The position numbers and the translations under genes were made by a program. From a virus, in IMG/VR virus record IMGVR_UViG_3300006754_000011, positions 1-64,000 of that record: 64,000 nt of DNA; one strand, written 5' to 3'. This document shows positions 3,315 to 9,999 of the stretch, piece after piece. The number at the start of each line of letters is the position of its first letter. The first letter of the stretch is position 1. The notes under the pieces are model-generated. The model had not been told where the DNA came from, searched no databases, and worked only from the letters and a program-made list of their open reading frames with translations.

Positions 3315-4850
3315 ATGGCAGGAACCAGTATTTATTCGGTTTATCGCAGAACTGCACGTGCAGCTGCAAAACAACAAGTTGTTAAAAAAACTTCAACTAT
3401 TGATATTGATAAAGCACGTACCAATTTTGCATATTTTTGTGATGTTGTAGGAGATAAACCTCCTGCAGAACATATGGAATTATGGCATGAGCACCTGTAT
3501 ACTCATGAAGATAGTGAATGTTTAATTTCAATTGCGGGACCTAACGTTGATATTCTTGCTCCACGAGGCTCTGCTAAATCAACCGTACTTGGTTTATTTA
3601 CTGCATGGGCGATTGGGATACATGCTCTCCATCGCAAACCCCTAAAGATCCTCTATATTTCTTATACTGTTGATGTAGCTCGTCCTAAAAGTGCAGCAAT
3701 AAAACGAATTATTGAAGATAGTAAGATTTATAGAGAAATCTTTCCTACAGTAAAAATTGCTAAAGGAATTAATTCCAATGAATATTGGAGTATTGATTGG
3801 AAGTTCGCAGGAATAAGATCTACAGGTGAAGAAGAATTTAGTTTATGTTGTGCAGGATTAAAAGGTGCAGTGACTTCGAAACGTTCTCATCTTTGTATTA
3901 TTGATGACGCAATTAAATCTGCTGATGATATTAAAAATAGAGATATACGAGTAGCAATGGAGGATAACTGGAACTCAGTTATTGTCCCAACAATGTTTGA
4001 AGGTGGAAGAGCTATATGTCTTGGGACACGTTTTCGTCATGATGACATTCATCAGACAACTTTTATTCCTGATAATGATTGGATCCAGATTGTTCAATCT
4101 GCAGTAACACTAGATGAGCATGGAGATGAGAAATCTTATTGGCCAAAAATGTGGTCTTTAGATTATTTAAAAGATAGAAGAAGACAAGCACCCATTAGTT
4201 TTAGTTTTCAATATCAAAATCAAATTGTTAGAACTAGTGAGATGTCTATTTCACCAGATCTTATTATCAAAGGACAAATTCCTACTGAATTTGAATGTTT
4301 AGGAGTAGGAGTTGATTTATCTGCAGGAATACGTGAAAGAAATGATTATACAGCTTTTGTTATGGGTGGTCGTGTTGGCGACAAAATTTATATTATTGAT
4401 TGTAAACGTTTAAGGATTATGGGTAACGTCGAAAAATTAGAAGCCATTATGGAAATGATGTATGAATGGGGGGTTGTTCATAAAGACCATGATAGAAATA
4501 AAGATGTTTATTTTCCTACAGGAAGTACTGTTGATATTTGGTCAGAAGCTGTTGCATATCAAGCTTCTTTAGAAGCTGATTTTAAACGTATATGTCTTGA
4601 AGAACAAGGCCTGCACAATCTTTTATGGCATCCAGTAAAAGGTTTTCGTGGAGATAAAGTTGCACGTTTTAGAGGTATTATGGGATTATTCGAACGTCAT
4701 AAAATCCGCTTTAACAAGTATCGCAAATTCCAAGCTTTAACAGATGAAATTGTAAATTTTGGAGTTAGTTCCCATGATGACTGTGTAGATGCGTTGGTAT
4801 GGCTTTGCAATGGATTAATGTCTAGAGGAAAACTAGAGTTAGAGTATTGA
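3315..4850 (+). CDS. terL: Terminase large subunit
   Basis: Walker A APRGSAKST, Walker B LCIIDD, coupling motif LGTR, RNase H-fold GVGVDLS and HDDCVDA. Confidence 0.93.
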   Translation: MAGTSIYSVYRRTARAAAKQQVVKKTSTIDIDKARTNFAYFCDVVGDKPPAEHMELWHEHLYTHEDSECLISIAGPNVDILAPRGSAKSTVLGLFTAWAIGIHALHRKPLKILYISYTVDVARPKSAAIKRIIEDSKIYREIFPTVKIAKGINSNEYWSIDWKFAGIRSTGEEEFSLCCAGLKGAVTSKRSHLCIIDDAIKSADDIKNRDIRVAMEDNWNSVIVPTMFEGGRAICLGTRFRHDDIHQTTFIPDNDWIQIVQSAVTLDEHGDEKSYWPKMWSLDYLKDRRRQAPISFSFQYQNQIVRTSEMSISPDLIIKGQIPTEFECLGVGVDLSAGIRERNDYTAFVMGGRVGDKIYIIDCKRLRIMGNVEKLEAIMEMMYEWGVVHKDHDRNKDVYFPTGSTVDIWSEAVAYQASLEADFKRICLEEQGLHNLLWHPVKGFRGDKVARFRGIMGLFERHKIRFNKYRKFQALTDEIVNFGVSSHDDCVDALVWLCNGLMSRGKLELEY

Positions 4851-5067: not shown

Positions 5068-5087
5068 TAGAAAAAAAGAAGTAACTG

Positions 5088-7358
5088 ATGAGCGTAACTA
5101 ATTCTGCTTTTAAATCAATGCTGGATGCAGCAATTAACCGTGACAGTACCGGAGGAGCTGACACGATGTTGATTAATGCTCATCTAGCCCAAATGAAAAT
5201 GTTTGGGATTAGACAGGGTGTTGAGTTTTATCCAGAGCAAGATAATTTCGGAACACAGCGTTTTGATTTTATTCAACAAGTTATTAAATTCAATCAATTA
5301 GATGCACGTCTCGATGCTATTTGGGATAAATTCCTCGCTTGGGGAAAAGGTTTATTCTATATTCGTCCAACAGAAAAAACTTATCGTATTTATTGGTTTG
5401 ATAAAGATTCTTACCGCAGTTATTATTCTCCTGAAGGTAACTTAGAAGAAGTTATTATTATCTATCCATATAAAGTTAAGGCTTCAAAAGGTTTTACCAA
5501 TACACAAGTAGGTATTGGAACTAATAAACGTTATATGCGTCTTCGTATCACAATTGACACGATTGAAGAAATGCATAGTGAGCAAGAACTTAGTTTCGAT
5601 ACACCTCAAGAATTTAGTACATTAAATAAAACAGAGACTATTAATACACTTCAATTTATTCCTTGTGTAGAAGTCTTTAATAATCCAGATGCTTTTGGAA
5701 CAGATGGACGAGGTGATTTTGATTGGATAGCCAATCAGATTGTTGCCCATGATGAGATGGTTAAAAATATTAGAGCAAATTTATCTTTCTTCGGAAATCC
5801 TACTTTACTTTCTTCTCGACCTAAGCAAGACATTGTTGAAAGCAACAATGATAATCCTCCACAAAGACCTAGTATTTCTAGCCAATCTGGATTTACTTCT
5901 GATCTCAGTATTCTTCAATCAACTTATAAGCAAGATCCTGTAACTCGAAATCCTGCAGGATATATAGGTAGCCCTGGTGGAGGTATGCGTGTACCTAGAG
6001 TTATTGCAAATTTAGAACCTACTGATCGTGTTGGTTTTATTACTCCTAATGCAGTTAGTACCGATCAAGCACGGTATGCAGAACAGTTGCGTTCAGAGAT
6101 AAGATTAGCTCTTGGTGGTATCGATGATCTTTCTGTTCAGAATGTAACAGCAACTGAAATTAAATCTGCATACGGACGTGTTAGCGCTACAGCTAAGAAA
6201 AAATGCTTGCAATTATATAACTATGGAATCTGTAAATGCTTCGAGTTAATGATATTCCAGGAAGAACAAATCTTCCGTAAGACAATGGCACAAGCCAGCG
6301 GAATTAAATATCCTGAAGCTCCTGAAGATGATTCACCTGAAGCATTAAATAAGTATGAGAAGCAGAAATTAAAATATGAAGATAAATTAGATGCTGCAAT
6401 TACTAAAGCTGAAGAGACAAAAGAGATTCCTGAAGGAGTGTTAGGGCTTGCACCAGATGGGGTTAGATCAGTTGCATGGAGATGGATGGGGCCTGTTTAT
6501 GAAGACACAGCACAAGATAAGCTCAATCAATCTATGTTTATAAGAAACCTACAAGAATTAGGGGTAGATAGTATAGAAGCACTGAAGTACTTATTCCCTT
6601 CTAAAACTGATGATGAGATAGCAGCAATGTTATCTGGTTTTCCGTTTAGAATGGTAGGTCAAGTACAAAGGGCATATTCCACATTTATTGATTTAATTAA
6701 TCAAGAAATGCGGACACCACATCCGCAGCAGCCGGACCTTCCGATGTCTGCAGATCCGAGACTCGATCTCACCCCATTTTTATATCGAACACTTGAAAGT
6801 TTACAAAAGGAAGTAACCTATGCCGGACGTTATCGCTCAGCCGACCCAATCGGCACCCCAGACATCCCCGACCCAGCCGAGCAATTACGCGGCGGGTCCC
6901 GTGGCAACAATAGCCTCACAGGCTCCACAGGTGGTGTCGACAGCCCCACAATGGGTGGCACCGCAGACAACCAGCGTAGCGCCAGCACCTCAAATGCAGG
7001 CCCAGATGGGGGCGGTTCAACCACAATACAGCCCTACTCAGTCTTACCCCCAGGCAGCCCCCTCGGTAGCACCGCAGGGACAGGACAATCCTTACAGGGA
7101 GGCGTTCAACAAAGTAGTGGGACTCCTGAGTTCACCAGTCCAGCTCCCCTTCCAGGGTCAACCATCAAGTCAGATCTCGGAAACCGTTCAGCCCAATTAC
7201 AGTTCCCCGCAAGCAACCCAGTACAACAACCAGGGTCAGCTGATCTCGCAGCCTGGGATAGGGAACAACCAGGATTACTACAACGGCTATTCCCAACCTT
7301 CACAGGAGATCAGCCAGGAACAGCTCCTCGCAAACGGAGTAAGTCCAGAAAGTCTTGA
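5088..7358 (+). CDS. Portal protein with a long disordered C-terminal extension
   Basis: Lies between TerL and scaffold/MCP; portal-like size and layout (FIPCVEVFNN...GRGDF...IVAHDEM...FGNPTL); last ~180 aa overlap the next gene. Confidence 0.75.
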   Translation: MSVTNSAFKSMLDAAINRDSTGGADTMLINAHLAQMKMFGIRQGVEFYPEQDNFGTQRFDFIQQVIKFNQLDARLDAIWDKFLAWGKGLFYIRPTEKTYRIYWFDKDSYRSYYSPEGNLEEVIIIYPYKVKASKGFTNTQVGIGTNKRYMRLRITIDTIEEMHSEQELSFDTPQEFSTLNKTETINTLQFIPCVEVFNNPDAFGTDGRGDFDWIANQIVAHDEMVKNIRANLSFFGNPTLLSSRPKQDIVESNNDNPPQRPSISSQSGFTSDLSILQSTYKQDPVTRNPAGYIGSPGGGMRVPRVIANLEPTDRVGFITPNAVSTDQARYAEQLRSEIRLALGGIDDLSVQNVTATEIKSAYGRVSATAKKKCLQLYNYGICKCFELMIFQEEQIFRKTMAQASGIKYPEAPEDDSPEALNKYEKQKLKYEDKLDAAITKAEETKEIPEGVLGLAPDGVRSVAWRWMGPVYEDTAQDKLNQSMFIRNLQELGVDSIEALKYLFPSKTDDEIAAMLSGFPFRMVGQVQRAYSTFIDLINQEMRTPHPQQPDLPMSADPRLDLTPFLYRTLESLQKEVTYAGRYRSADPIGTPDIPDPAEQLRGGSRGNNSLTGSTGGVDSPTMGGTADNQRSASTSNAGPDGGGSTTIQPYSVLPPGSPLGSTAGTGQSLQGGVQQSSGTPEFTSPAPLPGSTIKSDLGNRSAQLQFPASNPVQQPGSADLAAWDREQPGLLQRLFPTFTGDQPGTAPRKRSKSRKS

Positions 7359-7839
7359 AGTCATTGACCATTTCGGTCCTGATGCTGCAGCTGTTCTTAA
7401 CAACTATTCTTGTCAAATAGAAGATCATCTTATTCATACAGACGGTCAACTACAAGAATCAGTCGGTTTACTTAAAGAGTTGTCTAATGAGCATAAAGCT
7501 TATGAAACAATTCTGACTAATCCTGATGTTTTAGCTGACTACACATGTGAATTCTTTGGACCTAATGGCCCTTATCCTGTACGTGAAGAGCAAGCTCCTA
7601 CTTATCAAGCTGTAGGACAAACTGGACAACCTGCACAGGCTCCACAACCACGTGCTGAGCAACAGCAGTTCCAACGTCCTCAAATGCCAGTTCCTCCACA
7701 GCCTCAAGCTCCTGAGAATTCTGGTGAATTCTGGAATAACTTTGGCAACTTAGCTGATCGTGATCCACAGAATGCATGGCGTTATTTGAATGCTCAGTCA
7801 CCTGAGACCTTCAGACAAAAGATGCTCGTAATGGAATAA
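6820..7839 (+). CDS. Putative capsid scaffolding protein (P/Q-rich)
   Basis: AAGGAAG upstream of ATG; P/Q-rich N-half, acidic coiled coil and short C-terminal helical domain; followed by a terminator; sits between portal and MCP. Confidence 0.65.
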   Translation: MPDVIAQPTQSAPQTSPTQPSNYAAGPVATIASQAPQVVSTAPQWVAPQTTSVAPAPQMQAQMGAVQPQYSPTQSYPQAAPSVAPQGQDNPYREAFNKVVGLLSSPVQLPFQGQPSSQISETVQPNYSSPQATQYNNQGQLISQPGIGNNQDYYNGYSQPSQEISQEQLLANGVSPESLEVIDHFGPDAAAVLNNYSCQIEDHLIHTDGQLQESVGLLKELSNEHKAYETILTNPDVLADYTCEFFGPNGPYPVREEQAPTYQAVGQTGQPAQAPQPRAEQQQFQRPQMPVPPQPQAPENSGEFWNNFGNLADRDPQNAWRYLNAQSPETFRQKMLVME

Positions 7840-7864
7840 AGATAAACTTAGTAAATGTAAAATA

Positions 7865-7892
7865 AAGGGTAGTAATCAACTGCCCTTTTTTT
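7865..7892 (+). terminator. Rho-independent terminator
   Basis: AAAGGGTAGT-AATCA-ACTGCCCTTT followed by a T run. Confidence 0.7.
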
Positions 7893-7907
7893 ATAGAATT
7901 AGATATT

Positions 7908-8351
7908 ATGTCAATTGCAAATACATTACGAATGGCAGGGCAAATAGGAGCTGGTTTAGGAGCCGTTGCAAAGGCTTATCCAGTACCAACAGCAATGTTA
8001 GGAGTTGGTCTAGGATCAATACCAGTAGCTGCTATGCATGGTGAAAAAGCAGCATATGCAGATCCTACTAGAAGTGGATTAGGAGGTACTCTTGGTTATG
8101 GTCTATTCGCTAATCCTATAGCAGGAGCTGCGTATGGATTAGGACATGAACGTGGAAGAAATAAAGAATCTGGCATTTTAGGTGATATGGTTAATCAAGT
8201 GATACCAGTAGCTACTACACCTCAAGATAAAGCTATAGAAGAATATTTAAGAAGGAGACAAGCTAGACAAGATACGATTAGAAGTCTAGTGAAAGCAGTG
8301 AATCCAATGCCTGGAGGATATAATCCTACAATTTACGGAGGTAATATTTAA
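7908..8351 (+). CDS. Gly/Ala-rich small protein carrying the RMAG motif
   Basis: 147-aa ORF; TAGAAT 8 nt before ATG. Confidence 0.55.
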   Translation: MSIANTLRMAGQIGAGLGAVAKAYPVPTAMLGVGLGSIPVAAMHGEKAAYADPTRSGLGGTLGYGLFANPIAGAAYGLGHERGRNKESGILGDMVNQVIPVATTPQDKAIEEYLRRRQARQDTIRSLVKAVNPMPGGYNPTIYGGNI

Positions 8352-8353
8352 TT

Positions 8354-8704
8354 ATGGCTAACACTCCCGAAGCTGCTTTAGCAAAAGCACAAAAAGTAAA
8401 AGAATTATTTGCAGCTCAAGCTTTACAGAATGAGATTGCACAACAACAAGCAAGAGTTAATCCTGAAATAACTTCAGAAGCTATTACAATGCAGCCTCAA
8501 GTTATTCAACCTAATTCAAGAATAGGAACTGTACCTAGCAATGTTTGGTCTACAGGAAATTTAATTCCTGGTCCTTCAGGTGAATCAAAATTAGCTGCTA
8601 CATGGAATCCTTCAATGGATCCTGCAGGTATAACAAACCAACAACAAAATGCTTTGGGTTGGAATAACGTTCAAGTAGGTGCTCCTGATCCTTGGATTGG
8701 GTAA
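8354..8704 (+). CDS. Hypothetical Q/P-rich protein
   Basis: 116-aa ORF abutting the previous gene. Confidence 0.55.
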   Translation: MANTPEAALAKAQKVKELFAAQALQNEIAQQQARVNPEITSEAITMQPQVIQPNSRIGTVPSNVWSTGNLIPGPSGESKLAATWNPSMDPAGITNQQQNALGWNNVQVGAPDPWIG

Positions 8705-8847: not shown

Positions 8848-9999
8848 ATGTTTATTGATAACGATTTCCCAAAACTGCTGGGTGCGGAACTTTACCGTCC
8901 CCATCCAGCGTATATCGTGGAGATGGCGGTTGAACCCGTCGTAGTCCATGACTTTACAAAACAACCTGGTCAGACTGTTCAGCTTGATCGCTACAGATTC
9001 TTTGGCGCTCCTGGTACTAAAACCAGTCGTGAGCGTACTCAAGACCAGACGATAGGTACAGCTAATAGCCGTTCTATTGTTAAAGACAAAGTTCTGGTTT
9101 CTCTTCGTGAGTACACCGGACCTGCAGATCCAAACAATACGAACCTTCCTAGTACTTTCAAGATTGCTCGTGAGACCTTGATGACAGCGCAGCGTTTGCT
9201 GCTTGACACAGGGAACCTCAACATGTTCCACCAGTCAATAGGTAGTTTAACCCTTTTGGATGATTACCGTCGTTGGCGTGACCGTGTGTTCCTTGATGAA
9301 CTCTTCAAGGCCGAGTCTCGTGGTAAGTCATCTGATACTCAAGGTGGTTACTACTATCCTGAGAATCCTACAAAGGCTACTAGTACTTCGCTACCTGCAT
9401 ATACAGCAGCTCAGTATGCTTCTGAGCGCTTCAAATTTAATGTTAAAACTGACCTTCTAGAAGTTGTCAAAGGGCTTCGCAAGCGTAACGTTCCTGTCTT
9501 TGCCGACGGTTACTATCGTTGTATTGCCGATCCTTCTTTCATGAAGGACATGAGAGCCGACTCCGGCTTCCGTGAAGTTGCTCGCTATCCTGGTATGGGA
9601 CAGCCTAACCCTCTAATGGGTGCGCAGTCTCCTAACTCTGCCGTTTACGGTGGTGGCCAGTATGGACAAGCTCAGTTTGTTGGCGGTGAACCCGTTATGC
9701 CTTCAGGTTTCGTCTTTGAAGGTGTAAGGTTCTTCGAATCAACCAACATGCCTAGTAAAACCATTTCGGTCGATATTGGTGATGGTAACGGTGCACAGAC
9801 ACGTGACACCCCTCCCGCCCTCTTCTTCGGACCTCAGTCTGTTGGTGTCGGCATTGGTGGTCCTAACGCTCAAGTTTTAATCAATAACAATGATGACTTT
9901 TCACGATTCATTATTTTGATCTGGCAGCTTTATGCTGGCTTCGCAAACTTGAACAAAGACTTTACCACTGTTGGTTTCACCATCACTGAAACATATTGA
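8848..9999 (+). CDS. Major capsid protein
   Basis: 383 aa, downstream of portal and scaffold; C-ending codon bias typical of high expression; HK97-like elements (KQPGQTVQL, G..EGVRFFESTN, FFGPQSVG). Confidence 0.85.
   Translation: MFIDNDFPKLLGAELYRPHPAYIVEMAVEPVVVHDFTKQPGQTVQLDRYRFFGAPGTKTSRERTQDQTIGTANSRSIVKDKVLVSLREYTGPADPNNTNLPSTFKIARETLMTAQRLLLDTGNLNMFHQSIGSLTLLDDYRRWRDRVFLDELFKAESRGKSSDTQGGYYYPENPTKATSTSLPAYTAAQYASERFKFNVKTDLLEVVKGLRKRNVPVFADGYYRCIADPSFMKDMRADSGFREVARYPGMGQPNPLMGAQSPNSAVYGGGQYGQAQFVGGEPVMPSGFVFEGVRFFESTNMPSKTISVDIGDGNGAQTRDTPPALFFGPQSVGVGIGGPNAQVLINNNDDFSRFIILIWQLYAGFANLNKDFTTVGFTITETY

What the first reader, a model, noticed from the sequence alone, without database searches (positions are those of the whole stretch)
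6820..7358. 539-nt dual-coding overlap: portal C-terminal tail overprinted on the scaffold gene
Seen: the portal frame stays open for ~180 codons inside the +1-frame scaffold-like ORF. GC jumps in this stretch (42/60 in line 6841, 36/60 in line 6901, versus about one-third elsewhere) and falls back after the portal stop. The scaffold frame uses C-ending codons (TAC AAC AAC, GAT TAC TAC AAC) where T-ending ones would create portal stops. Both products are low-complexity; the portal tail ends in basic PRKRSKSRKS. Inference: the overlap is under selection. It gives the portal a long disordered, DNA-binding-like tail and may fix portal:scaffold stoichiometry or allow a frameshifted portal-scaffold fusion.
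Basis: partly seen in the sequence, partly recalled or inferred. Interest (0 to 1): 0.7.

Follow-up and report, generated by a model that had tools for sequence, protein, structure and literature searches.

The report
Portal tail overprinted on scaffold gene
In this cyanophage and more than 230 relatives, about 540 bases are read in two frames, giving a long flexible tail on the portal protein and the first half of the next (scaffold-like) head protein; selection keeps both readings, which is an unusually long and old gene overlap for a tailed phage.

Summary
The portal-like ORF (5088-7358) and the +1-frame scaffold-like ORF (6820-7839) share 539 nt. This stretch is a GC island of 0.55-0.64 in a window of 0.36.

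The overlap is not chance or an assembly artefact. Every complete relative examined keeps a +1-frame ORF starting 476-641 nt before the portal stop, behind a conserved Shine-Dalgarno sequence. That covers three well-sampled clades, one GC-rich contig and ten contigs binned with cellular genomes, down to 34-36% scaffold identity.

Both frames are under purifying selection:
- No portal-frame stop occurs, where 9-14 are expected from the genome's codon use.
- Synonymous sites of each gene evolve 2.4-6 times slower inside the overlap than outside.
- An OLGenie-like test gives portal-frame omega 0.5-0.67 (neutral control 1.2-1.3) and scaffold-frame omega 0.28-0.46 (control 0.72-0.77).

Constraint is interleaved: conserved scaffold motifs sit where the tail is free, and the reverse.

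Both overlapped parts are predicted to be disordered. The tail carries a conserved motif and an invariably basic tip. What the tail does is inferred, not shown. A frameshift fusion is not supported.

The same scan already noted this arrangement in other genomes of the lineage. I found no published description.

The parts
5088..7358 (+). Portal-like gene (756 aa): folded core of about aa 1-580 plus a C-terminal tail of about 175 aa
   Evidence: It follows TerL (3315-4850; PF17289, phrog_38). It matches phrog_20475 at E=1.7e-208 over aa 8-750. Foldseek top hits of the model are portal proteins (8i4m, 8v8b, 6qxm and others), although the model is poor. ESM Atlas neighbours carry PF05133. There is no Pfam or PDB sequence hit.
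6820..7839 (+). Scaffold-like gene (339 aa), +1 frame relative to the portal. The N-terminal ~160 aa are Q/P/A/S-rich and predicted disordered. These are followed by long helices and a C-terminal helical hairpin.
   Evidence: It lies between the portal and the major capsid protein (8848-9999, phrog_1357). The AF2 model has helices 176-246 and 301-338, the latter at pLDDT 80-87. The family has 184 representative clusters. There are no Pfam, PHROG or PDB hits.
6820..7358 (+). Dual-coding overlap (539 nt) and GC island
   Evidence: The overlap is conserved at 476-641 nt in 157/157 loci of clades 1-2, about 68/70 loci of clade 3, L234, and 10 contigs from genome bins.
6807..6822 (+). Scaffold translation start: SD-like AAGGAAG (6807-6813), a TAA in the scaffold frame (6814-6816), and ATG at 6820
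   Evidence: Read directly from the sequence. Relatives have AAGGAG/AAGAGG plus ATG in clades 1-2 and TAAGGAG plus GTG in clade 3. In the window, no other in-frame ATG lies between scaffold aa 64 and about aa 290.
6819..6896 (+). Start of the overlap (portal aa 578-603, YAGRYRSADPIGTP...): all three codon positions are nearly frozen
   Evidence: Diversity at portal codon positions 1/2/3 is 0.05/0.07/0.2 in clade 1 and 0.03/0.00/0.04 in clade 2, against 0.13/0.06/0.52 outside the overlap.
7087..7161 (+). Most conserved scaffold-frame island: NPYREAFNKVVGLLSSPVQLPFQGQ (scaffold aa 90-114), a predicted short helix within the disordered region
   Evidence: Scaffold codon positions 1 and 2 have pi 0.01-0.07 and position 3 has 0.24-0.31. 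Fifteen residues are invariant across clades that share 42% identity. The helix spans aa 93-104. The same motif, NPWQQAFQALSASLNT, is found in clade 3.
7185..7295 (+). Portal-frame island: ...QFP...GSADLAAWDREQPGLLQRLFP (portal aa 700-736)
   Evidence: This stretch shows the portal-frame pattern of diversity, with p3 greater than p1. Invariant residues are G716, D719, Q727, P728, G729, L731, L734, F735 and P736. The motif is present in 100% of distinct tails in clades 1-2. AF2 predicts weak short helices at 718-734.
7305..7355 (+). Basic tip of the portal tail (GDQPGTAPRKRSKSRKS). It is overprinted on the start of the scaffold's structured domain (QLLANGVSPESLEV).
   Evidence: K+R has a median of 5-6 among the last 15 aa and D+E has a median of 0. 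At least 4 K/R occur in 97-100% of 175 distinct tails from three clades.
7864..7897 (+). Terminator-like hairpin plus T-run just after the scaffold stop codon
   Evidence: Consensus scan and sequence. Function not tested.

Best explanation
This is a genuine overprinted gene pair. The same 539 nt are translated in two frames on the same strand, each from its own start.

Shown by comparison of sequences:
- Frame 0 continues the portal-like protein past its folded core into a Gly/Ser/Pro/Thr-rich tail of about 175 residues. The tail carries one conserved motif (G-x-A-D-L ... QPG-L-x-x-LFP) and a Lys/Arg-rich tip.
- Frame +1, starting at its own Shine-Dalgarno sequence and ATG at 6820, encodes the Gln/Pro/Ala/Ser-rich N-terminal half of the next head-module protein. 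This half carries one strongly conserved short helix (AFNKVVGLLSS).
- Both frames stay open in every relative examined, and both are under purifying selection.
- Constraint is interleaved: each protein's motifs sit where the other is free.
- The overlap ends where the scaffold-like protein's helical domain begins.

Inferred:
- Both overlapped parts are intrinsically disordered, which is what lets one DNA stretch serve two proteins.
- The overlap probably arose when the portal frame was extended into the stop-poor, out-of-frame reading of the scaffold's Q/P/A-rich region, and the extension was then put to use. The direction is not settled.
- In portals of known structure the C-terminus lies in the crown, facing the capsid interior. 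Twelve such tails would therefore reach into the procapsid. My best guess, at about 30%, is that they engage the scaffold core during assembly and/or the packaged DNA through the basic tips.
- The two proteins are made separately. The portal start (AAGAAG) has a weaker SD than the scaffold start (AAGGAAG), which fits few portals and many scaffolds.

The confidence given is for dual coding under selection, not for the function of the tail.
For: - **Conservation of the arrangement.** Loci were gathered. A +1-frame ORF starts 491-641 nt before the portal stop in 157/157 loci of the window clade and the S-EIVl clade, 476-527 nt before it, at a GTG, in about 68/70 loci of a third clade, 485 nt before it in the GC-rich L234, and 485-584 nt before it in 10 contigs binned with cellular genomes.
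- **Conserved SD and start codon**.
- **Stop avoidance.** Keeping the scaffold protein and using the genome's codon use, 5-14 portal-frame stops are expected and P(open) is at most 0.002. With local codon use, P(open) is 0.005-0.12 per genome. In the window, 24 of 24 at-risk codons avoid a T ending, P about 2e-11.
- **Substitution rates**. Portal-synonymous sites: 0.19-0.44 inside the overlap against 1.2-2.3 outside. Scaffold-synonymous sites: 0.37-0.63 inside against 1.04-2.29 outside. Portal-frame omega is 0.50-0.67 (upper CI at most 0.86) against a control of 1.22-1.33. Scaffold-frame omega is 0.28-0.46 against a control of 0.72-0.77. All of this holds in three clades.
- **Mosaic of constraint** reproduced in three clades.
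- **Invariant residues** in both frames across clades.
- **Basic tip** in 97-100% of 175 distinct tails.
- **Disorder and helices** from AF2.
- **Portal fold leads**.
- **No alternative start.** In the window, no in-frame ATG near or after the portal stop could start a shorter scaffold.
Against: - There is no direct evidence of translation in either frame.
- Given the portal tail's sequence, the scaffold frame would be open by chance fairly often (P 0.001-0.65 by genome). Openness alone is therefore weak evidence for that frame; the case rests on the start site, the substitution pattern and the motifs.
- The OLGenie-like estimator is biased, as its own controls show (0.72-0.77 and 1.2-1.3 rather than 1). 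The sequences are related and the low-complexity region is hard to align.
- Part of the slow-down at synonymous sites could reflect selection on GC content or on the mRNA rather than on protein.
- The portal model is poor (pLDDT 40.5).
- 'Scaffold' is a positional and architectural inference. There is no sequence similarity to T7 gp9 or to Pfam scaffold families.
Confidence: 0.85

Rival explanations
1. Only the scaffold frame matters. The portal tail is a tolerated read-through product with no function, and its frame is open because a Q/P/A-rich sequence read one base earlier rarely makes stops.
For: The scaffold frame is the more constrained of the two (omega 0.28-0.46 against 0.50-0.67). The scaffold keeps a Q/P/A-rich stretch outside the overlap too (aa 265-300), so that composition looks native to it. 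The tail is predicted to be disordered.
Against: With the scaffold protein held fixed, 2-4 stops are expected under local codon use and 5-14 under the genome's codon use. None occurs in more than 230 loci. Scaffold-synonymous sites are 2.4-4.6 times slower inside the overlap, and portal-frame omega is well below its control. There are segments where the portal frame is the more conserved, with invariant residues across clades. The basic tip is kept in 97-100% of tails.
Confidence: 0.07
2. Only the portal frame is coding here. The scaffold-like protein starts after the portal stop, as annotated for S-EIVl in GenBank, and the long +1 ORF is a by-product.
For: GenBank annotates S-EIVl AHV82225 from the first ATG after the portal stop. 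Given the portal tail's sequence, the +1 frame is open by chance with P up to 0.65 in some genomes. Many gene calls in public data are the short form.
Against: The window has no in-frame ATG from scaffold aa 64 to about aa 290, so a short form could not begin near the portal stop. An SD and start codon are conserved at the homologous site in all clades, ATG or GTG. In the segments at 6897-6992 and 7089-7160 the most variable position is scaffold codon position 3. Scaffold-frame omega is 0.28-0.46 against a control of 0.72-0.77. Fifteen residues are invariant in the NPY..AFNKVV..PFQGQ island.
Confidence: 0.03
3. The overlap exists to allow programmed frameshifting that makes a portal-scaffold (or scaffold-portal-tail) fusion protein.
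For: Two long open frames side by side would allow a fusion anywhere. A C CCA AAC heptamer in the portal frame recurs in 56/74 and 60/71 loci of clades 1 and 2. One relative, L222, carries a mutational fusion of the two frames.
Against: The heptamer is simply the codons of the conserved LFPN motif. It is absent from this window (CCCAACC) and lies at other positions in clade 3. A -1 slip there enters the third frame, which closes after 5-16 codons, not the scaffold frame. No covarying RNA structure was found near the start of the overlap. L222 sits in a degraded or chimeric context, with a truncated TerL and portal.
Confidence: 0.04
4. The overlap is a sequencing or assembly artefact: a spurious indel removed the true portal stop.
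For: None found.
Against: The same arrangement occurs in more than 230 independently assembled contigs and in the isolate S-EIVl.
Confidence: 0.01

Closest known systems
Rz/Rz1 spanin genes of phage lambda (and T7 18.5/18.7). From general knowledge, not tested here.
   Same: A tailed dsDNA phage with two genes on the same strand in different frames, each with its own start and both functional.
   Different: Rz1 is wholly embedded and short (about 180 nt), and the pair acts in lysis. Here the 3' end of one head-assembly gene overlaps the 5' end of the next over about 540 nt, and both overlapped parts are predicted to be disordered.
Overprinted genes of small viruses (phiX174 A/B/K and D/E; many RNA viruses). 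From general knowledge: overprinted regions tend to encode disordered protein.
   Same: A long out-of-frame overlap with selection on both frames, unusual composition, and disorder in the overlapped products.
   Different: Those genomes are tiny and under strong pressure for compactness. This one is a cyanophage of about 80 kb with ordinary intergenic spacing elsewhere.
Nested in-frame head-assembly genes (lambda C/Nu3, and protease-scaffold pairs of P2- and Mu-like phages). From general knowledge.
   Same: Head-assembly proteins that share DNA, with the downstream protein started inside the upstream gene.
   Different: Those share the same reading frame and therefore the same sequence. Here the frames differ (+1), so the two proteins are unrelated in sequence.
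C-terminal extensions of portal proteins: the P22 barrel, and the flexible C-termini of the phi29, SPP1 and T7 portals. From general knowledge; portal structures appear as fold hits.
   Same: Extra C-terminal sequence beyond the crown, which would face the capsid interior.
   Different: Here the extension is about 175 aa, predicted to be disordered rather than a helical barrel, G/S/P/T-rich with a basic tip, and encoded out of frame inside the next gene.
P22-type scaffolding proteins: disordered segments plus a C-terminal helix-turn-helix that binds coat protein (abstracts of PMC11565965 and bioRxiv 10.1101/2022.12.13.520362).
   Same: Position between the portal and the capsid gene, long helices, disordered segments, and a small C-terminal helical hairpin.
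   Different: No detectable sequence relation. The N-terminal disordered half is much longer and is shared with the portal gene. Scaffold function is not shown.

Membership tests
Overprinted (same-strand, out-of-frame) overlapping gene pair | Two long ORFs in different frames of the same strand over the same DNA | tested here: met
   ORFs 5088-7358 and 6820-7839, +1 frame, 539 nt shared.
Overprinted (same-strand, out-of-frame) overlapping gene pair | Both frames stay open in diverged relatives more often than composition predicts | tested here: met
   More than 230 loci in at least 4 clades. Shuffle nulls are strong for the portal frame and weaker for the scaffold frame.
Overprinted (same-strand, out-of-frame) overlapping gene pair | Purifying selection on both frames | tested here: met
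   OLGenie-like omegas with natural controls, and slower synonymous sites, in three clades. Mosaic of codon-position diversity.
Overprinted (same-strand, out-of-frame) overlapping gene pair | Both products are actually made | not testable with these tools
   No proteomic or ribosome-profiling data were reachable. Only the conserved SD and start codon speak for it.
Phage portal protein | Gene next to the large terminase in the head module | tested here: met
   TerL lies at 3315-4850 (PF17289, phrog_38). Only a 62-aa ORF separates it from the portal-like gene.
Phage portal protein | Portal fold (wing, stem, clip, crown) | tested here: inconclusive
   Most Foldseek hits are portals (8i4m E=9e-5; 8v8b, 6qxm at prob 1.0 over about 150 columns). 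TM-scores are 0.1-0.2 because the model is poor, at pLDDT 40.5. ESM Atlas neighbours carry PF05133 at scores of 0.95-0.96.
Phage portal protein | Sequence match to a curated portal family | tested here: not met
   No Pfam hit at E<=0.01. No PDB hit with the profile. hhalign against T7 gp8 gives probability 0.3%. The only match is phrog_20475, 'virion structural protein'.
Phage scaffolding protein | Gene between the portal and major capsid genes; elongated helical protein with a small C-terminal coat-binding helical hairpin | tested here: inconclusive
   The position requirement is met, although two small ORFs intervene before the capsid gene. AF2 predicts helices 176-246 and a hairpin at 301-338 with pLDDT 80-87. 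Fold search returns only generic coiled coils.
Phage scaffolding protein | Sequence relation to a known scaffold family (PF05396, PF09306) | tested here: not met
   No Pfam or PHROG hit. hhalign against T7 gp9 gives probability 0.08%. The ESM Atlas offers only sub-threshold leads at 0.85-0.86.
Phage scaffolding protein | Present in procapsids and absent from mature virions | not testable with these tools
   Needs particle proteomics.
Programmed ribosomal frameshift product (as in T7 10A/10B or lambda G/GT) | A slippery site conserved at one position that leads into the other long frame | tested here: not met
   The only recurrent heptamer is absent from the window, is not at a fixed position in clade 3, and leads into the third frame.
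Nested in-frame head genes (lambda C/Nu3 type) | The downstream product is read in the same frame as the upstream gene | tested here: not met
   The frames differ by +1 in all loci.

The most novel reading that the evidence does not exclude
The two disordered regions encoded by the same DNA are functional partners. The twelve portal tails, through their conserved motif and basic tips, would bind the scaffold core and/or the DNA end and nucleate procapsid assembly at the portal vertex. The portal would then carry its own scaffold-recruiting arm, and the overlap would lock the two interacting segments into one unit that is always inherited together. This would be a new way of incorporating a portal, and a rare case of an overprinted pair whose products work on each other.
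Probability: 0.15. Interest if true: 0.8.

Novelty: new member of a known kind. Interest (0 to 1): 0.6.

Why it matters
Long out-of-frame overlaps are textbook features of tiny viruses. They are rarely documented, with evidence of selection, in large tailed phages.

This one is about 0.5 kb long and joins two core head-assembly genes. It is conserved across a globally abundant lineage of aquatic cyanophages: about 1,900 portal clusters, marine and freshwater members, and one cultured isolate, S-EIVl.

Practical consequences:
- Gene callers and GenBank truncate the scaffold-like gene. The S-EIVl annotation lacks 192 N-terminal codons.
- Synonymous-site methods and recoding would mislead in this stretch.

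Biological interest:
- It offers a natural system for studying how two disordered proteins share one sequence by interleaving their short motifs.
- It points to an unstudied portal feature, a tail of about 175 residues with a basic tip. This can be tested cleanly, because single C-to-T changes truncate the tail without altering the scaffold protein.

Tried and rejected
- **Complex prediction.** Complex prediction with the scaffold-like protein (A2) and portal tail aa 640-756 (A1) returned no verdict, score 0.00. It says nothing either way.
- **S-EIVl paper.** The ISME J 2015 paper (PMC4542036) is not held, so its virion proteomics could not be checked.
- **Sequence relatives.** Profile searches of the PDB gave no significant relative for either protein. 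Pfam gave nothing for either. hhalign against T7 gp8 and gp9 gave nothing.
- **Fold search.** The scaffold-like model matched only generic coiled coils, Z<=6.
- **Phage records.** tblastn of the portal core against 50,697 phage records found only S-EIVl, so no tail-less cultured relative could serve as an outgroup. ESM Atlas neighbours of 590-601 aa might be tail-less relatives, but they could not be retrieved.
- **Which frame is older.** RSCU of each frame in the overlap is uncorrelated with non-overlap codon use (r -0.38 to 0.13). This is inconclusive.
- **RNA structure.** RNAalifold over -120..+60 around the scaffold start found 5 invariant pairs and no covariation.
- **Promoter.** The consensus scan found no promoter-like site near 6820.
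- **Internal start in the portal frame.** A lambda Nu3-like in-frame start that would make a separate tail protein was rejected. There is no SD before the single Met in the window's tail, and S-EIVl's tail has no Met beyond the first few overlap codons.
- **P0215.** The scan with this protein found no viral contig.
- **Literature.** Searches found no description of a portal/scaffold overlap.
Full report
**Observation**

The window has a 756-aa ORF at 5088-7358 and a 339-aa ORF at 6820-7839 on the + strand. The second is in the +1 frame and the two share 539 nt. GC is 0.55-0.64 across 6820-7240, against about 0.35 in the flanks and 0.36 for the whole window. The cited codon choices are real. 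Of 25 scaffold codons where a T-ending synonym would create a portal-frame stop, only the one that forms the true portal TGA ends in T. T-ending synonyms make up 29-80% of use in the neighbouring head genes, so P is about 2e-11.

**Identity of the genes**

- The upstream neighbour is the large terminase (PF17289, phrog_38).
- The 756-aa protein matches phrog_20475 ('virion structural protein') end to end at E=1.7e-208. It has no Pfam hit and no significant PDB sequence hit.
- Its AF2 model is poor (pLDDT 40.5), yet most of the top-ranked Foldseek hits are portal proteins. Language-model neighbours carry PF05133. I accept 'portal' as likely.
- The 339-aa protein has no family. AF2 predicts a disordered N-terminal ~160 aa with one short helix (93-104), then long helices (176-246) and a confident C-terminal helical hairpin (301-338).
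- Given its position before the major capsid gene (phrog_1357), this protein is scaffold-like. It shows no sequence relation to T7 gp9 or to Pfam scaffold families, so 'scaffold' remains an inference.

**Conservation**

- The only cultured relative is Synechococcus phage S-EIVl. It has the same arrangement: a 767-aa portal and an unannotated 325-aa +1 ORF that overlaps it by 554 nt. GenBank starts that gene after the portal stop.
- Viral metagenome contigs gave 80 loci of the window's clade, 80 of the S-EIVl clade, 72 of a third clade found through a scaffold homologue of 36% identity, and one GC-rich contig.
- Fourteen contigs binned with cellular genomes also matched. One comes from a Prochlorococcus single-cell assembly.
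- In 157/157 complete loci of clades 1-2 the +1 ORF begins at an ATG 491-641 nt before the portal stop, behind AAGGAG or AAGGAAG.
- In about 68 of 70 loci of clade 3 it begins at a GTG 476-527 nt before the stop, behind TAAGGAG.
- L234 and ten of the binned contigs have overlaps of 485-584 nt.
- No relative with a portal ending near codon 580-600 was found. Among the best 120 of 1,942 portal clusters, lengths are almost all 735-763 aa.

**Selection**

- *Codon-position diversity.* Outside the overlap, diversity is typical of single coding: about 0.13/0.06/0.52 for the portal and about 0.2/0.13/0.52 for the scaffold. Inside the overlap all three positions are depressed, and the pattern alternates. 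The first 25 codons are nearly frozen. Next comes a stretch where scaffold codon position 3 is the most variable, then a relaxed stretch. After that is an extremely conserved scaffold island (NPYREAFNKVVGLLSSPVQLPFQGQ). Then comes a stretch with the portal-frame pattern (GSADL...QPGLLQRLFP). A scaffold-type pattern over the basic tip ends the series. The same mosaic recurs independently in the S-EIVl clade and in clade 3.
- *Synonymous shuffles.* Keeping the scaffold protein gives 5-14 portal-frame stops with the genome's codon use, and P(open) is at most 0.002. With local codon use, P(open) is 0.005-0.12. The converse test is weaker, at P 0.001-0.65.
- *OLGenie-like pairwise estimator, with natural controls.* Portal-frame omega is 0.50-0.67 in the overlap, against 1.22-1.33 for the same phantom frame downstream. 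Scaffold-frame omega is 0.28-0.46, against 0.72-0.77 for the phantom +1 frame in the portal core. This holds in all three clades.
- *Synonymous rates.* Sites synonymous for the scaffold are 2.4-4.6 times slower inside the overlap than outside. Sites synonymous for the portal are about 5-6 times slower.

**What the products look like**

- The tail is about 49% G+S+P+T and is predicted to be unstructured, apart from weak short helices at the conserved motif.
- It ends in a basic tip in 97-100% of 175 distinct tails, with a K+R median of 5-6 among the last 15 residues and no acidic residues.
- The overlap ends where the scaffold-like protein's helical domain begins.
- The window has no in-frame ATG that could start a shorter scaffold near the portal stop.

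**Mechanism**

Two proteins are made independently from one DNA stretch. This is possible because both segments are disordered and keep their few short motifs at different places.

A frameshift fusion is not supported. The only recurrent slippery-looking heptamer is simply the codons of the LFPN motif. It is absent from this window and leads into the third frame. No covarying RNA structure and no promoter-like site were found at the internal start. The portal's own start has a weaker SD-like sequence (AAGAAG) than the scaffold's (AAGGAAG).

What the tail does is inference. From the known geometry of portals, its C-terminus should face the capsid interior. I therefore favour contact with the scaffold core and/or the DNA.

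Which frame is older could not be decided. The scaffold's Q/P/A-rich composition also occurs outside the overlap, which weakly suggests that the tail is the newcomer.

**Comparison and novelty**

Overprinting is a well-known phenomenon. In tailed phages the closest case is Rz/Rz1. Head genes are known to share DNA in frame, as in lambda C/Nu3. Literature searches found no description of an out-of-frame portal/scaffold overlap.

The scan's own notes show that the same arrangement was flagged and followed up in other genomes of this lineage, with the same conclusion. Those are unchecked AI notes. The tests reported here were done independently on this window and its relatives.

**Verdict**

Selection on both frames is supported. 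The speculations about function and fusion are not.

Noticed in passing
window 7864-7897: A terminator-like hairpin (AAAGGGTAG...CTGCCCTTT) followed by a T-run lies 25 nt after the scaffold stop, ahead of two small ORFs and the capsid gene. It could be a partial terminator or an element that stabilises the mRNA.
   Followed up: no
window ~6558-6819: Synonymous diversity of the portal gene falls to 0.24-0.31, against about 0.5 elsewhere, over the last ~100 codons before the internal scaffold start. This is seen in clades 1 and 2 and is weaker in clade 3. RNAalifold found no covarying structure and the scan found no promoter. The cause is unexplained.
   Followed up: partly
L001:6646-7623 (S-EIVl, KJ410740): GenBank annotates the scaffold-like gene (AHV82225) only from 7222, after the portal stop. 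The conserved ORF starts at 6646, so 192 N-terminal codons are missing from the public annotation.
   Followed up: yes
L222:3290-4864: A 524-aa ORF joins the portal's C-terminal core to the scaffold frame about 30 codons into the overlap. This is a natural frameshift fusion. It sits in a contig with a truncated terminase and portal and a sigma-70-like gene downstream, so it is probably a degraded or chimeric copy.
   Followed up: partly
L235 (CACASR010000014.1): A close relative, with 77% portal identity and the same overlap, lies on a 41.6-kb contig of a Prochlorococcus single-cell assembly (AG-349-C13). This is a lead to the host of the window's clade.
   Followed up: no
L248:2962-5384: The portal homologue on this binned contig is broken mid-gene into two frames. 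This is either an assembly error or a pseudogene.
   Followed up: no
window 5072-5090 and 6805-6822: The sequences just upstream of the portal and scaffold start codons are near-copies: AAGAAGTAACTGATG and AAGGAAGTAACCTATG. They differ in the SD core.
   Followed up: no
window 7908-8704: Two small ORFs of no known family lie between the scaffold-like gene and the capsid gene. One is 147 aa and Gly/Ala-rich with a glycine-zipper look; the other is 116 aa.
   Followed up: no
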